A DNA stretch of 64,000 bases, from the NCBI GenBank assembly GCA_963704325.1, contig OY969885.1, positions 1,383,188 to 1,447,187 on the forward strand. Reading direction: 5' to 3'. Shown here piece by piece: positions 4,012 to 10,361 of the stretch. Source of the DNA: an uncultured Chloroflexia bacterium (lineage in GTDB: Bacteria; Chloroflexota; Limnocylindria; Limnocylindrales; CSP1-4). Both the position numbers and the translations under genes were made by a program. The first letter of the stretch is position 1; every line of letters starts with the position of its first letter. Under the pieces are notes generated by a model, which did not search any database, was not told the DNA's origin, and worked only from the letters and a program-made list of their open reading frames with translations.

Positions 4012-4425
4012 GGCGCGAGCGTAGCGCGGCTCAGCGGACGGGTGCGCCGACGCCTGGCCGCGGCCTTCACGGACGCGTTTGTTGGCCACGGCCGAAGTAA
4101 CAGCCAAGTTGTGGGCTGCGCTGCCCCCAAAGCGGGGCATCTGTGCCGTTTGTTCGCGCTGGACGAAGAATTGGGCGAGTTGCTGGCAGTTTGGGCGGCT
4201 TCCTGGCTTTTACTTCGTCCACGGCGAACAAGTGGCGCCAACTCTCGTGCCGGGCCGCGTGGGGCGCCGCGATTGCGCCTCCACGACCCCTGATCTAGAC
4301 TCAATCCTGACGTGGATAGTCGGAATTCGACAGCCTTGGATCCCCTTACAGCGGCCGTCCTTGAAGAGGGCGTGGCGCCGGCCAAGCTTGCCCGCACGCG
4401 GAGCATCTTCCCTGGCACCGGCGCC

Positions 4426-4893
4426 GTGCACTTCTCGACGCGCGGCGAGTACGGGGTGCGCCTGATCGTGGAGCTGGCGCGCCATTTTGGCTCCGGTCCG
4501 GTCAGCCTGGGCGAAGTTGCCGATCACGAGGCCCTGCCGCGCCCGTACCTGGAGCAGCTCGTCATCAGCCTGCGTGAGTCGGGCCTGGTGCGCAGCACGC
4601 GCGGCGCGCGCGGCGGCTACGAGCTTGCCCGGCCGCCGGAGGAGATTCGCATGGGCGAGGTGCTCAGGGCACTCGAAGGGCCGATCGCACCGATGATCTG
4701 CGCGAGCGAGGATCCGGCGCATGCGTCAATGTGCGAGCGGACCGGCTTCTGCAACGTCAATCACCTGTGGCTGACCGTGCGCAAGGCGATCTCCGGCGCA
4801 CTCGACTCGATCACGCTCGCCGACCTGGCCGTTCCCCGGTCACGCCACCCGTTTCACTCGGGCCCAATACCCATTCAGCTGACGGAGTCATGA
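4426..4893 (+). CDS. Rrf2-family transcriptional regulator (IscR/RirA-like, 3 Cys)
   Basis: VHFSTRGEYGVRLIVELAR...LEQLVISLRESGLVRSTRGARGGYELARPPEEI with a C-terminal Cys cluster (C-x6-C-x5-C). GTG start at 4426, in frame with the longer ORF. The stop overlaps the sufC start. Confidence 0.8.
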   Translation: MHFSTRGEYGVRLIVELARHFGSGPVSLGEVADHEALPRPYLEQLVISLRESGLVRSTRGARGGYELARPPEEIRMGEVLRALEGPIAPMICASEDPAHASMCERTGFCNVNHLWLTVRKAISGALDSITLADLAVPRSRHPFHSGPIPIQLTES

Positions 4894-5819
4894 CCCAGAC
4901 ACTCGACCAGACCACGGACAACCCAGTCCAGTCCCAGGCCACGGCCCCGGCGGACGACCGCACCCTGGTCATCCGCGACCTGCACGTCGTGCCCATCGCC
5001 GACCGCAGCCGCGAGATCCTGCGCGGCATCAACCTCGAGGTGCGCCAGGGCGAGGTCCACGCGATCATGGGCCGCAACGGCTCGGGCAAGACAACGCTCG
5101 CCTACGCGCTGATGGGCCACCCGGCGTACGAGGTCACCAAGGGCGAGGTTCTCTGGAAGGGCCATGACCTGCTCGCGCTGAGTCCTGACAAGCGCAGCCG
5201 CCTGGGCGTCTTCCTCGCCTTCCAGTACCCGACCGCCATCCCCGGCCTGTCAGTGGCCAGCTTCCTGCGCACTGCGCTCAACGCGCGCATGCGGCCGCTG
5301 GAGCAGGTCATCGACCCCATGTTCGACCCTTCAGACATGACCCGCGGCGGGATCAAGATGGGCGAGTACCGCAAGCTGCTGCGCGACAAGATGGCGCTTC
5401 TGAGCCTCGACGAGAGCTTCGCGGCGCGCTACGTCAACGAGGGCTTCAGCGGCGGGGAGAAGAAGCGCCTGGAGATGCTCCAGATGGCCGTCCTGCAGCC
5501 ACAGATGGCGATCCTCGACGAGACCGACTCGGGCCTCGACATTGACGCGCTGCGCATCGTTGCGGAGGGCGTAAACGCCCAGCTCAGCCCCGACCTGGGA
5601 GTGCTCCTGATCACCCACTATCAGCGCCTGCTGAACTACATCACGCCCGATGTCGTGCACGTGCTGGCCCAGGGCCGCATCGTCGCTTCGGGCGGACGCG
5701 AACTCGCCCTGAGGCTTGAAGACGAGGGATACGCCCCCATACTGCGCGAGGCAGGTCTCGAGGTCGCGCCAGACGAGGAGCGCGAAACGCCAGAGCCGGC
5801 CGAAACCGCTCACGCCTAG
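4890..5819 (+). CDS. sufC: Fe-S cluster assembly ATPase SufC
   Basis: GRNGSGKTTL Walker A, LSGGEKKR signature, and the HYQRLLNYI motif typical of SufC. The ATG at 4890 overlaps the Rrf2 stop (ATGA). Confidence 0.9.
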   Translation: MTQTLDQTTDNPVQSQATAPADDRTLVIRDLHVVPIADRSREILRGINLEVRQGEVHAIMGRNGSGKTTLAYALMGHPAYEVTKGEVLWKGHDLLALSPDKRSRLGVFLAFQYPTAIPGLSVASFLRTALNARMRPLEQVIDPMFDPSDMTRGGIKMGEYRKLLRDKMALLSLDESFAARYVNEGFSGGEKKRLEMLQMAVLQPQMAILDETDSGLDIDALRIVAEGVNAQLSPDLGVLLITHYQRLLNYITPDVVHVLAQGRIVASGGRELALRLEDEGYAPILREAGLEVAPDEERETPEPAETAHA

Positions 5820-5845
5820 GTCCGCAGGAAGGGAGTAGCCAAGAC

Positions 5846-8645: not shown

Positions 8646-8665
8646 CCCGGGTCCGAATACCTCCC

Positions 8666-8935
8666 GTGCTGCGCGTCCATGTCGGCGGGCAGAAGGAGGT
8701 GGACGCTTCTGGAGCCACGGTGGGCGAGCTGCTGCGCGAACTCTCGGGCCGCAGCTCTGGACTGGCCGAGCAGCTCTTCACGGACGACGGCGCACTGCAT
8801 CGCTTCGTCAACGTCTATGTCAACGGCCAGGACGTGCGCTACCTGTCGGAGCTCGACACGCCCGTGTCGGAGCGCGATGCGGTGATCATCCTGCCGGCCA
8901 TGGCGGGAGGCTCGGCCGCCGCCACAGGCTCTTGA
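8666..8935 (+). CDS. cysO: CysO/MoaD/ThiS-like sulfur carrier with a 7-residue extension after the Gly-Gly
   Basis: 90 aa with ...ILPAMAGGSAAATGS* at the C-terminus. GTG start. The stop overlaps the cysM TTG start (TTGA). A JAMM protease lies downstream. Confidence 0.7.
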   Translation: MLRVHVGGQKEVDASGATVGELLRELSGRSSGLAEQLFTDDGALHRFVNVYVNGQDVRYLSELDTPVSERDAVIILPAMAGGSAAATGS

Positions 8936-9864
8936 GCGTCAGCGTCTCGCTGCTCGACCTGATCGGGCGTACACCGCTCGTCGATATCTCCCGTTTCTGC
9001 CCAAATCCCGGCGTCCGGCTGCTGGTCAAGCTGGAGGGCGCCAACCCCACTGGATCGGTCAAGGACCGCGTGGCGCGCTACCTGGTTGCCGACCTGGAAC
9101 GCGCAGGCCGCCTTGGTCCGGACGCGATCATCCTGGAGCCGTCGAGCGGCAACACCGGCATCTCGCTCGCGCTTGTGTGCCTGTTGAAGGGCTACCGGTT
9201 GACCGTTGTGATGCCGGACAACGTGACTCGTGAGCGGCGCCAGCTGCTCGAGCTTTACGGCGCTCAGATCATCGATTCACCCGGCGCCCTGGGCTCCAAC
9301 GGCGCGGTGGCGATGGCCCGTCAGCTGGCGGCGGCCGATCCGCGCTACGTCATGGCCGACCAGTACGCCAACCCGGCCAACCCGCTCGCCCACTACGAGA
9401 CGACCGGCCCGGAGATCATCGCCGACTGCCCGGAGATCGACGTCTTCGTCGCCGGACTGGGCACGGGCGGGACGCTGATGGGCGTGAGCCGGCGACTGCG
9501 CGAGCTCGACCGCCCGGTGCGCATCTACGCCGCGGAGCCGATGCCGGGCGAGATGGTCCAGGGCCTGCGCTCGATTGACGAGGGCTTCGTGCCCGAGATC
9601 TTCGACCCGTCGGCCATTGACGGTCGCTTCCTCGTCACAACAGCCGAGTCGATCGAGGCTTTGCGCAGGCTGACCGCGACCGAGGGGATCTTTGCCGGCG
9701 TCTCGGCCGGGGGAGTGCTTGCCGTCGCGTCGCGCATCGCGCTGGGCATGGAGTCGGGGACCATCGTTGCGCTCCTCGCCGACGGCGGCTGGAAGTACCT
9801 GTCCGAAAACGTCTGGTCGCGCGACCTCGATGATGAGTCGGTGGAGAGCCTCAACCTGTGGTGA
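8932..9864 (+). CDS. cysM: O-phosphoserine sulfhydrylase / cysteine synthase CysM (PLP-dependent)
   Basis: TPLVDI...KLEGANPTGSVKDR (PLP lysine), SSGNTG and GTGGT motifs. TTG start coupled to the cysO stop. Confidence 0.85.
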   Translation: MSVSVSLLDLIGRTPLVDISRFCPNPGVRLLVKLEGANPTGSVKDRVARYLVADLERAGRLGPDAIILEPSSGNTGISLALVCLLKGYRLTVVMPDNVTRERRQLLELYGAQIIDSPGALGSNGAVAMARQLAAADPRYVMADQYANPANPLAHYETTGPEIIADCPEIDVFVAGLGTGGTLMGVSRRLRELDRPVRIYAAEPMPGEMVQGLRSIDEGFVPEIFDPSAIDGRFLVTTAESIEALRRLTATEGIFAGVSAGGVLAVASRIALGMESGTIVALLADGGWKYLSENVWSRDLDDESVESLNLW

Positions 9865-10361
9865 AGGAGTCGCTGCCGACGCCCGAAGAATGGGCCGCGG
9901 TCAAGCGCGAGCCGGCCGGCATGGCAGGCGCCGCGGATGAGCTGGCGCATGTCTCGCTGCCGGCGGCTCTGCTGCAGGAGGTGATCGACGCGGCCAGGGA
10001 CGGGCTGCCCAACGAGTCATGTGGGCTACTGGTCAGTGACCGCTACGCGGCGGATGGCGGGACACCGTCGCGCTACATCGCCTTGCGCAACGCGGCGGAG
10101 TCGCCCTACCGCTACCTGATCGACCCCCAGGAGCAGCTCCGCGTGTGGATCGCGATCGAAGACGCCGACGAGGTCGTTTGGGCGATCGTCCACTCCCATG
10201 TGGCATCCCTCGCACGGCCGTCCGCGACTGACGTGGGCCTGGCCTACTTCCCGGATTCGCTGTACGTGATCTGTTCGCTTGCCGCCGCGGATCAGCCGGA
10301 GGTCCGCGCCTGGTCCATCCACGACGGCAATGTCACCGAGGTTCAGCTAGGCGTCGCCTAG
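9858..10361 (+). CDS. mec: Mov34/MPN/JAMM metalloprotease (Mec+-like)
   Basis: The JAMM motif HSHVASLARPSATD (HxHx7Sx2D) is preceded by ...ESCGLLV. The start overlaps the cysM stop. Confidence 0.8.
   Translation: MVKESLPTPEEWAAVKREPAGMAGAADELAHVSLPAALLQEVIDAARDGLPNESCGLLVSDRYAADGGTPSRYIALRNAAESPYRYLIDPQEQLRVWIAIEDADEVVWAIVHSHVASLARPSATDVGLAYFPDSLYVICSLAAADQPEVRAWSIHDGNVTEVQLGVA

What the first reader, a model, noticed from the sequence alone, without database searches (positions are those of the whole stretch)
4312..10361. Rrf2-regulated sufCSU operon without sufBD, fused to a MoeZ-CysO-CysM-Mec cysteine pathway
- The window contains sufC, sufS and sufU but no sufB or sufD, the obligate SufC partners. 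Its regulator is Rrf2-type, not the ArsR-type SufR.
- The same tightly overlapping gene string (ATGA/TTGA couplings) continues into a rhodanese-E1 enzyme, a CysO-like carrier, CysM and a JAMM peptidase.
- In Mycobacterium tuberculosis, CysO thiocarboxylate is made by MoeZ using sulfur from a cysteine desulfurase, but those genes are scattered. Here the desulfurase, scaffold, E1/rhodanese, carrier, synthase and maturase appear to form one transcription unit.
- This may be a compact persulfide relay feeding both Fe-S assembly and thiocarboxylate-dependent cysteine synthesis.
Basis: partly seen in the sequence, partly recalled or inferred. Interest (0 to 1): 0.6.

Follow-up and report, generated by a model that had tools for sequence, protein, structure and literature searches.

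The report
Rrf2-controlled SUF plus CysO cysteine operon
A soil Chloroflexota (Limnocylindria) genome carries one repressor-controlled operon that joins the sulfur-mobilising half of the SUF iron-sulfur machinery to a carrier-protein route for making cysteine. This is a lineage-typical rearrangement of known parts rather than a new system, and the "missing" sufBD scaffold genes form a separate movable module in related genomes.

Summary
Window 4312-10361 encodes, on the + strand and mostly with overlapping stop/start codons: Rrf2, SufC, SufS, SufU, rhodanese-ThiF, CysO, CysM and a Mec-type JAMM peptidase. There is no SufB or SufD anywhere in the 64 kb.

- sufS carries a 1-base insertion (T6508) that splits the gene. 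About 50 relatives lack it, so it is probably an assembly error.
- The E1 has its rhodanese domain at the N-terminus, a known family (NF006444), not the MoeZ domain order.
- Rrf2 regulators of suf genes are already known.

The cluster is typical of its lineage. About 50 Limnocylindria-like genomes keep it. A sister clade has sufB-sufD-Rieske directly upstream in the same string, and another clade has it directly after sufU.

A conserved palindrome (AATCCYGAC-N7-GTCRGRATT) overlaps the promoter. It reappears in front of sufU where an insertion has separated sufU from sufS, and in front of sufB in other clades. This points to one Rrf2 regulon built from movable modules.

My best reading is that cysteine supply and SUF sulfur mobilisation are expressed together. 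Direct SufS-to-CysO sulfur relay is unsupported and would be stoichiometrically circular. I could not locate sufBD in this genome. Modest interest.

The parts
4273..4301 (+). Predicted promoter: -35 TTGCGC (4273-4278), 17-nt spacer, -10 TAGACT (4296-4301)
   Evidence: Read from the sequence. The CTAGACT box is conserved at the same distance from the operator in relatives, several of which have TTGACG as the -35. It falls below the thresholds of the generic promoter scan. Inferred, not shown.
4303..4327 (.). Rrf2 operator-like palindrome AATCCTGAC-GTGGATA-GTCGGAATT (GAC-N7-GTC)
   Evidence: It is the only exact copy in the 64 kb. Among the related loci, every exact (0-mismatch) match lies 80-132 nt upstream of the Rrf2 core or 51-52 nt upstream of sufU. 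Near-matches (1-2 mismatches, core intact) lie about 70 nt upstream of sufB in clade B. Further copies are shown. The geometry is the same as the footprinted RisR site T(t/g)GAC-N7-GTCC(t/a) (PMC9973013).
4312..4893 (+). rrf2: winged-helix Rrf2 regulator with three invariant Cys. The conserved core starts at 4429. The long ORF starts at a GTG inside the operator.
   Evidence: PF02082, E 5e-37. It scores below every NCBIfam equivalog cut-off: CymR 124/195, IscR 91/208. Cys130, Cys141 and Cys147 are invariant and align with E. coli IscR C92, C98 and C104.
4890..5819 (+). sufC: SUF ATPase, 309 aa, with N- and C-terminal extensions
   Evidence: TIGR01978, 318.8 bits against a cut-off of 212.8. More than 120 database relatives are at least 80% identical.
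5846..7094 (+). sufS: type II cysteine desulfurase, interrupted by a 1-nt insertion (T6508)
   Evidence: Two Aminotran_5 half-hits lie in different frames. The repaired 415-aa protein scores 548.7 on TIGR01979 against a cut-off of 475. The insertion is absent from all 52 aligned homologues.
7100..7498 (+). sufU: zinc-type sulfurtransferase partner of SufS
   Evidence: TIGR01994, 113.7 against 92.5; IscU scores only 79.8 against 192. The CGD, GCAIS and KCA motifs are read from the translation.
7488..8645 (+). Rhodanese (N-terminal) plus ThiF/MoeB-type E1 adenylyltransferase-sulfurtransferase
   Evidence: Pfam Rhodanese covers residues 19-109 and ThiF covers 129-364. NF006444 matches full length at 519.4 bits against 449. 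The motifs YCAAGARS, CYRC and CPAC are read from the translation. Co-linear homologues are common.
8642..8935 (+). cysO: ThiS/MoaD-fold sulfur carrier ending ...LPAMAGG followed by the tail SAAATGS
   Evidence: The best solved relative is M. tuberculosis CysO (3DWG_C), E 3.5e-23, aligned up to its terminal GG. The 4-nt overlap with the thiF stop is found in nearly every related locus.
8932..9864 (+). cysM: PLP-dependent O-phosphoserine sulfhydrylase-type cysteine synthase
   Evidence: The best solved relatives are M. tuberculosis CysM 3DWG/3DKI at E 2e-90; the next cysteine synthases are at E 6e-71. The SVKDR lysine and the arginine I take, from recalled literature, to be Mtb CysM Arg220 (LRSIDEGFVPE) are conserved.
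9858..10361 (+). mec: JAMM/MPN+ zinc peptidase
   Evidence: PF14464, E 1.7e-17. The HSHxxxxxxxSxxD motif is read from the translation. A convergent ECF-transporter ATPase gene (10333-11202, minus strand) ends the unit.

Best explanation
This is the Limnocylindria (Chloroflexota) version of the suf locus: a single operon, probably repressed by its own Rrf2 regulator.

Proposed control. The first gene encodes an Rrf2 regulator with three cysteines, likely an Fe-S-sensing protein of the IscR/RisR kind. It probably binds a GAC-N7-GTC palindrome that overlaps the -10 box and transcription start. When Fe-S clusters are scarce or oxidised, repression would be lifted.

What the operon would then express:
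- The sulfur-mobilising and ATPase part of SUF (SufC, SufS, SufU).
- A complete cysteine-synthesis module that uses CysO thiocarboxylate. The rhodanese-ThiF E1 adenylates and sulfurates CysO, CysM condenses CysO-COSH with O-phosphoserine, and Mec releases cysteine and trims the tail after the CysO Gly-Gly.

Functional logic (inferred). The substrate of SufS, cysteine, is made by an oxidation-tolerant route at the same time as SUF is induced.

The scaffold genes sufB-sufD (with a Rieske protein) form a separate module that carries an operator-like palindrome of the same type (imperfect copies upstream of sufB in two other clades). In sister clades it sits immediately before rrf2 or immediately after sufU. 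In this sub-lineage it has been displaced and is most probably elsewhere on the chromosome.

The sufS frameshift in the window is most likely an assembly indel.

Shown: gene identities, gene order, conservation of the cluster, and the positions of the operator. Inferred: repression by the Rrf2 protein, the signal it senses, the physiological logic, and the presence of sufBD elsewhere.
For: Gene identities.

Operon continuity.

Conservation: the genome scan with SufC returned 80 loci, mapped by tblastn. Counts of loci from the window's own clade:
- 21 keep the contiguous eight-gene string.
- 15 keep it with a 1.4-8 kb insert of opposite-strand genes between sufS and sufU.
- 4 have thiF followed by mec, with no cysO or cysM.
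- 6 stop after sufU.

Independent gene calls with Pfam labels reproduce the string in L001 and L209.

sufBD as a movable module:
- Clade B has sufB-sufD-Rieske-rrf2-sufCSU-thiF-cysO-cysM-mec.
- Clade C has rrf2-sufCSU-sufB-sufD-Rieske.
- Anaerolineae have the canonical sufC-B-D-S-U order, with no rrf2 and no thiF module.

Operator:
- Every exact copy in the related loci lies upstream of rrf2 or of sufU.
- Imperfect copies with the GAC-N7-GTC core intact (1-2 mismatches) lie about 70 nt upstream of sufB in clade B. Looser palindromes, some without the exact core, precede sufB in clade C.
- An internal palindrome plus a -10-like box (TACACT, TATAGT or TAGACT) precedes sufU in nearly every locus of the L024-L052 subclade. 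Several of these copies have a degenerate core. It is present even where the sufS-sufU gap is only 73-91 nt.
- In metagenome contigs the exact motif again lies upstream of rrf2-sufC (9 contigs) and sufU-thiF (7 contigs).

Regulator:
- The three Rrf2 cysteines are invariant and align with the IscR cluster ligands.
- RisR is an Fe-S-containing Rrf2 repressor of suf with the same site geometry (PMC9973013).

Physiology: moeZ, mec, cysO and cysM are induced by oxidative stress in M. tuberculosis (PMC11361707).

Frameshift: the extra base is unique to the window, and other long-read MAG loci (L001, L051) show several split genes.
Against: - No transcript or binding data exist. The promoter is below the threshold of the generic scan.
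- sufBD was not found for any genome of the window's own clade. It is absent within +-10 kb in about 50 loci. Two protein searches and an operator scan of metagenomes did not reveal a stand-alone operator-sufB unit. These searches were limited to the top 120 hits or 80 loci, so the negative result is weak.
- The Rrf2 protein scores best, though below cut-off, with the CymR model. CymR is a cysteine-metabolism regulator that has no cluster, so the sensed signal could be cysteine status rather than Fe-S status.
- Four close relatives lack cysO-cysM but keep thiF-mec, which the cysteine-supply logic does not explain.
Confidence: 0.65

Rival explanations
1. SufS/SufU persulfide is passed to the rhodanese domain of the E1 and then to CysO. 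One desulfurase would feed both Fe-S assembly and thiocarboxylate-dependent cysteine synthesis.
For: - sufU and thiF are translationally coupled, with an 11-nt overlap.
- In the L024-L052 subclade sufU is the first gene of the thiF-cysO-cysM-mec unit and has its own operator and promoter.
- Cysteine desulfurases are proposed donors to rhodanese-E1 fusions such as MoeZR and MOCS3 (PMC3227635).
Against: - The net chemistry moves sulfur from cysteine to cysteine and spends ATP, so it cannot be a biosynthetic route.
- Six relatives keep sufS-sufU without the thiF module.
- cysM and mec occur with the same operator but without neighbouring suf genes on other contigs (L139, L150).
- The donor to M. 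tuberculosis MoeZR is explicitly unknown.
Confidence: 0.15
2. Real loss of SufBD. This sub-lineage has no SufB or SufD, and SufC works with another partner or in another role.
For: - No SufB or SufD in the 64 kb window or within +-10 kb in about 50 related loci.
- None surfaced in the SufB and SufD searches or in the operator scan.
Against: - SufC passes the SufC equivalog cut-off. It is 80-94% conserved within the clade and about 60% identical to the SufC of sister clades that have sufBD adjacent.
- sufBD-Rieske demonstrably moves as a unit preceded by an operator-like palindrome.
- The searches could list only the top 120 hits, all closer to other clades, so they could not have seen a clade-A SufB or SufD.
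- A SufT-like gene sits 3 kb upstream.
Confidence: 0.07
3. Neutral operon fusion. The thiF-cysO-cysM-mec module simply landed downstream of sufU and is carried along, with no functional coupling to SUF.
For: - The module is absent from clade C, from Anaerolineae and from six clade-A loci.
- cysO-cysM has been lost in four loci.
Against: - The linkage persists across SufC identities of 58-100%.
- When an insertion split the operon, the module kept or gained its own copy of the same operator. This argues for selection on co-regulation.
Confidence: 0.1

Closest known systems
M. tuberculosis CysO-dependent cysteine pathway (mec-cysO-cysM, Rv1334-Rv1336, plus moeZ Rv3206c)
   Same: - Sulfur carrier with a terminal Gly-Gly.
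- CysM closest to M. tuberculosis CysM, with the arginine I take to be the Arg220 equivalent kept.
- JAMM peptidase.
- E1 with a rhodanese domain.
   Different: - Here the E1 lies in the same operon and has its rhodanese domain at the N-terminus (NF006444), not the C-terminus.
- The gene order is E1-cysO-cysM-mec.
- CysO has a tail of 0-7 residues after GG.
- The module is fused to suf genes and preceded by an Rrf2 operator. In M. tuberculosis the regulator linked to the mec-cysO-cysM genes in the retrieved paper (PMC8280819, abstract only) is AosR; that it acts directly on this operon is from my recollection.
Gram-positive / Terrabacteria SUF operons with SufS-SufU (B. subtilis sufCDSUB; actinobacterial sufR-sufBDCSU-sufT)
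   Same: - SufC, type II SufS and zinc-type SufU all score above the equivalog cut-offs.
- The Rieske and SufT-like accessory genes seen in relatives and upstream are typical of these operons.
   Different: - sufB and sufD are not in this operon in this sub-lineage.
- The regulator is Rrf2-type rather than SufR.
- A cysteine-synthesis module is appended.
Rrf2 regulators of Fe-S biogenesis (E. coli IscR, M. xanthus RisR, TIGR02944 suf regulator)
   Same: - Three conserved cluster-ligand cysteines.
- The gene is placed first in the operon.
- The palindrome has GAC-N7-GTC geometry and overlaps the -10 box and start site, as for RisR.
   Different: - The protein is below all equivalog cut-offs; its best, sub-threshold hit is CymR.
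- The regulon also includes cysteine-synthesis genes.
- Binding and the sensed signal are untested.

Membership tests
SUF Fe-S assembly system (SufBC2D scaffold plus SufS/SufU) | SufC ATPase of the SufC equivalog family | tested here: met
   TIGR01978, 318.8 bits against a cut-off of 212.8.
SUF Fe-S assembly system (SufBC2D scaffold plus SufS/SufU) | SufB and SufD scaffold subunits (PF01458) encoded with, or at least in the same genome as, SufC | tested here: inconclusive
   They are absent from the 64-kb window and from +-10 kb in about 50 close relatives. They are adjacent in sister clades. The rest of this genome could not be read.
SUF Fe-S assembly system (SufBC2D scaffold plus SufS/SufU) | Type II cysteine desulfurase SufS with its SufU partner | tested here: met
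   Repaired SufS scores 548.7 on TIGR01979 against 475. SufU scores 113.7 on TIGR01994 against 92.5. Caveat: sufS is frameshifted in this assembly.
CysO/CysM/Mec thiocarboxylate cysteine pathway | ThiS/MoaD-fold carrier with a C-terminal Gly-Gly, related to CysO | tested here: met
   The best PDB hit is M. tuberculosis CysO 3DWG_C, E 3.5e-23, aligned to its terminal GG. LPAMAGG is conserved in all relatives. Seven extra residues follow GG here.
CysO/CysM/Mec thiocarboxylate cysteine pathway | CysM of the O-phosphoserine / CysO-COSH type | tested here: met
   The closest solved structures are M. tuberculosis CysM at E 2e-90, against E 6e-71 for other cysteine synthases. The arginine I take to be the Arg220 equivalent is present. 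It scores below the E. coli-type cysM equivalog cut-off (274 against 394), as expected for this subtype. Substrate use is not testable here.
CysO/CysM/Mec thiocarboxylate cysteine pathway | JAMM metalloprotease (Mec) with the HxH...S..D motif | tested here: met
   PF14464, E 1.7e-17. The HSHVASLARPSATD motif is read from the translation.
CysO/CysM/Mec thiocarboxylate cysteine pathway | E1 adenylyltransferase with a rhodanese domain (MoeZ) | tested here: inconclusive
   Both domains are present and look catalytically intact, but in the reverse order. The MoeZ equivalog NF005902 scores 361 against a cut-off of 647 (not met). NF006444 scores 519 against 449 (met). It works like MoeZ but is not a member of the MoeZ equivalog family.
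Fe-S-sensing Rrf2 regulators (IscR / RisR type) | Rrf2 winged-helix fold with three cluster-ligand cysteines | tested here: met
   PF02082. The three invariant cysteines align with IscR C92, C98 and C104.
Fe-S-sensing Rrf2 regulators (IscR / RisR type) | Membership of the IscR equivalog, or demonstrated cluster binding and DNA binding | tested here: not met
   IscR TIGR02010 scores 91 against 208, the suf regulator TIGR02944 scores 71 against 111, and CymR scores 124 against 195. Cluster binding and DNA binding are not testable with these tools. Only a conserved palindrome in the right place is shown.

The most novel reading that the evidence does not exclude
In this Limnocylindrales sub-lineage the SufS-SufU pair has a second client. 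SufU is co-transcribed with the rhodanese-E1 and, in a whole subclade, is the first gene of that unit behind its own operator. It would hand persulfide sulfur to the rhodanese-E1/CysO system as well as to the Fe-S scaffold. The CysO thiocarboxylate pool, and whatever it feeds beyond cysteine, would then be directly coupled to SUF. In the extreme form, SufC operates here without any SufBD.
Probability: 0.1. Interest if true: 0.6.

Novelty: new variant of a known kind. Interest (0 to 1): 0.3.

Why it matters
Limnocylindria are abundant in soil and freshwater and are uncultured. The locus shows how they organise Fe-S assembly: as movable modules, each preceded by a palindrome of the same GAC-N7-GTC type (rrf2-sufC-sufS, sufU-thiF-cysO-cysM-mec, and sufB-sufD-Rieske).

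It gives a concrete, testable case in which cysteine supply by the oxidation-tolerant CysO route is transcriptionally tied to SUF. It also provides a defined 25-bp operator for regulon prediction in these genomes.

It does not reveal new chemistry or a new class of system. The apparent anomaly of SufC without SufBD is most simply explained by operon fission.

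Tried and rejected
- **Source contig look-up.** Exact-sequence look-up of the window's SufU and SufC to reach the source contig found nothing on record. The cluster look-up gave no accession.
- **Locating sufBD in the window's own clade.** None matched. Clustering showed that all 240 listed hits belong to other clades. Eleven context look-ups gave only clade B, clade C or actinobacterial-type operons. 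This question is unresolved, not negative.
- **Operator scan of metagenome contigs**. It confirmed the rrf2 and sufU sites but produced no stand-alone operator-sufB unit. About half of the 80 loci are low-GC chance matches.
- **Inserts between sufS and sufU.** I considered that the 1.4-8 kb inserts in 15 loci might hide sufBD. In L027, the one insert I read, the genes are unrelated and on the opposite strand, for example a MerR-like/cyclase-like protein. No insert gave a SufB or SufD hit.
- **Generic promoter and terminator scan.** It found no promoter. Four terminator-like sites were found against 2.2 expected by chance, all inside coding sequence, and three of them on the opposite strand. 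Uninformative.
- **Novelty of the E1 domain order.** I considered that the N-terminal rhodanese-ThiF architecture might be new. Rejected: it matches NF006444 full length, and many co-linear representatives exist.
- **Literature.** No paper in the library links CysO with a suf cluster or discusses this in Limnocylindria.

Full report
**What is there**

The window is high-GC DNA (68%). Its SufC is identical to a database protein carried on a 2,433,234-bp contig. Its closest named relatives are Chloroflexota of the class Limnocylindria, many of them long-read soil MAGs.

Between 4312 and 10361 the + strand carries eight genes:
- rrf2: long ORF from 4312, conserved core from 4429, ending at 4893.
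- sufC: 4890-5819.
- sufS: 5846-7094.
- sufU: 7100-7498.
- A rhodanese-ThiF E1: 7488-8645.
- cysO: 8642-8935.
- cysM: 8932-9864.
- A JAMM peptidase (mec): 9858-10361.

Five junctions overlap (ATGA, an 11-nt overlap, GTGA, TTGA and a 7-nt overlap). The largest gap is 26 nt. A divergent nitroreductase gene bounds the unit on the left and a convergent ECF-transporter ATPase gene bounds it on the right.

No SufB or SufD is encoded anywhere in the 64 kb. This rests on a Pfam scan of 20 large ORFs and a tblastn with Anaerolinea SufB and SufD at E<=1e-3.

**Corrections to the observation**

1. sufS is not intact in this sequence. One extra T at 6508 (GGCTG[T]CGAC) splits it into two frames. Removing it gives a continuous 415-aa SufS that passes the SufS model. 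All 52 aligned homologous loci lack this base. Related long-read MAG loci such as L001 and L051 show several such split genes. An assembly indel is therefore the likeliest cause, but a real pseudogene cannot be excluded from the sequence alone.
2. The E1 has its rhodanese domain at the N-terminus. It matches NCBIfam NF006444 over its full length (519 bits against 449) and fails the MoeZ equivalog (361 against 647). Co-linear relatives are common among 1.8 billion representative proteins, so this is a known architecture.
3. CysO ends LPAMAGG followed by seven more residues. Across relatives this tail varies from 0 to 7 residues, which implies trimming, presumably by the JAMM peptidase.

**Identity of the cysteine module**

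- CysM is closest to M. tuberculosis CysM, the O-phosphoserine / CysO-dependent enzyme. The E-value is 2e-90, against 6e-71 for other cysteine synthases. The arginine I take, from recalled literature, to be Mtb CysM Arg220 is conserved.
- CysO is closest to M. tuberculosis CysO and aligns up to its terminal Gly-Gly.
- The peptidase has the HxH...S..D JAMM motif.

The module works like the mycobacterial pathway. The E1 is not a member of the MoeZ equivalog family.

**Comparative picture**

A scan of one genome per species with SufC gave 80 loci. I mapped all eight proteins plus SufB and SufD on them.

| Group | Arrangement | Evidence |
|---|---|---|
| Clade A, the window's own clade (SufC 69-94% identical) | 21 loci keep the contiguous eight-gene string. 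15 have a 1.4-8 kb insert between sufS and sufU; in L027, the one insert I read, the genes are unrelated and on the opposite strand. 4 have thiF followed directly by mec. 6 end after sufU. None has SufB or SufD within +-10 kb. | |
| Clade B, a sister clade (SufC about 60% identical) | sufB-sufD-Rieske-rrf2-sufC-sufS-sufU-thiF-cysO-cysM-mec. Independent gene calls with Pfam labels confirm it in L208 and L209. | |
| Clade C, a third Limnocylindria clade | rrf2-sufC-sufS-sufU-sufB-sufD-Rieske, with no thiF module. | |
| Anaerolineae | Canonical sufC-sufB-sufD-sufS-sufU, with no rrf2 and no thiF module. | |

So 'sufC directly followed by sufS' is the normal order in this class. The sufBD-Rieske block is a unit that sits on either side of the rrf2-sufCSU block, and in clade A it has left the neighbourhood.

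**Regulation**

Upstream of rrf2 the clade-A loci share a block CTAGACT-CAATCCTGACG-N-...GGAATT. It contains a -10-like TAGACT box and a palindrome, AATCCYGAC-N7-GTCRGRATT. The window copy is at 4303-4327 and is the only exact copy in the 64 kb.

Where the operator is found:
- Among the related loci, every exact copy lies either 80-132 nt upstream of the Rrf2 core or 51-52 nt upstream of sufU in loci where sufU is separated from sufS.
- Near-matches (1-2 mismatches, core intact) lie about 70 nt upstream of sufB in clade B.
- A palindrome plus a -10-like box precedes sufU in nearly every locus of the L024-L052 subclade, even where the sufS-sufU gap is only 73-91 nt. Several of these copies have a degenerate core.
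- Clade C has a looser second palindrome upstream of sufB, some copies without the exact core.
- In a metagenome scan, the exact motif in high-GC contigs again lies upstream of rrf2-sufC (9 contigs) and sufU-thiF (7 contigs).

The site has the same GAC-N7-GTC geometry, and the same position over the -10 box and start site, as the footprinted site of RisR. [quoted passage not shown] That paper also shows that Rrf2 genes next to SUF genes occur patchily across phyla.

The three cysteines of the Rrf2 protein are invariant and align with the IscR cluster ligands. The protein is below all NCBIfam equivalog cut-offs, and its best, sub-threshold hit is CymR. The sensed signal is therefore inferred, not shown.

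**How it most likely works**

An Rrf2 repressor sits on the promoter of its own operon. When repression is lifted, the cell makes SufC, SufS and SufU together with a complete CysO-thiocarboxylate route to cysteine.

In M. tuberculosis this route is induced by oxidative stress (PMC11361707), and SUF is the stress-tolerant Fe-S system. Coupling the two would secure the substrate of SufS when Fe-S demand is high. The retention or gain of a separate operator copy in front of sufU-thiF-cysO-cysM-mec after the operon was split argues that this co-regulation is selected.

The scaffold genes most probably lie elsewhere on the chromosome behind their own operator, but I could not show this.

A SufS-to-rhodanese-to-CysO persulfide relay for cysteine synthesis would take sulfur from cysteine to make cysteine, at the cost of ATP. 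The M. tuberculosis literature only proposes a desulfurase as donor to MoeZR and states that the primary donor is unknown (PMC3227635). The translational coupling of sufU and thiF keeps the idea alive as a minority reading, but nothing beyond adjacency supports it.

**Verdict**

It is a new arrangement of known modules under a predicted shared Rrf2 operator, not a new kind of system. The main open point is where sufBD lies in this sub-lineage.

Noticed in passing
window 6508 (within sufS, 5846-7094): A single extra T splits sufS into two frames. All 52 aligned homologues lack it. Related long-read MAG loci (L001, L051) carry several similar split genes, so assembly indels look common in this data source.
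   Followed up: yes
window 4312-4428; L001 9411-9527; L003, L004, L010: The GTG inside the operator spacer is in frame with rrf2 in the window and in L001, L003, L004 and L010, despite a linker of variable length and sequence. It lies about 10 nt after the -10 box, which suggests a near-leaderless rrf2 mRNA with an N-terminal extension ending in the conserved RSIFPGTGA. The L008-L023 subclade lacks this GTG and instead has an AGGAGA ribosome-binding site with a later start.
   Followed up: partly
L124, L151, L159 (OAH/OAS sulfhydrylase); L139, L150 (mec-operator-cysM); L111, L115 (peroxiredoxin); L129 (FecE-like ATPase): In unrelated high-GC metagenome contigs the same palindrome, AATCCYGAC-N7-GTCRGRATT, lies just upstream of genes for sulfur amino-acid synthesis, peroxide defence and iron uptake. 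This hints at a wider Rrf2 regulon type in high-GC bacteria that links cysteine/methionine synthesis, oxidative stress and Fe-S assembly.
   Followed up: partly
L003, L006, L007, L010, L053: These relatives have the rhodanese-ThiF gene followed directly by the JAMM peptidase, with no cysO or cysM in the 20-kb locus. What the E1 and the peptidase act on there is unexplained.
   Followed up: no
window 1116-1493 (+): A SufT-like gene (PF01883 FeS_assembly_P, E 2e-13) lies about 3 kb upstream of rrf2, separated from it by unrelated genes. L001 has the same gene in the same place.
   Followed up: partly
L024 and L030 (contigs CAVPIF010000002.1 and CAVPIF010000003.1 of one MAG); L032 15308-19314: One MAG holds two near-identical copies of the cluster on two contigs, which could be a duplication or a strain mixture. 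L032 has two rhodanese-ThiF genes in tandem within the cluster.
   Followed up: no
L087 5636-5658; L211: An actinobacterial-type operon (sufB-sufD-Rieske-sufC-sufS-sufU-sufT) without an adjacent rrf2 still has the GAC-N7-GTC palindrome about 60 nt upstream of sufB. In L211 an HNH/DUF222 gene is inserted between sufB and sufD.
   Followed up: no
window 24729-26444 (+): This 571-aa stop-to-stop frame gives two separate enoyl-CoA hydratase (ECH_1) matches. It is either a tandem-domain protein or two genes fused by another indel.
   Followed up: no
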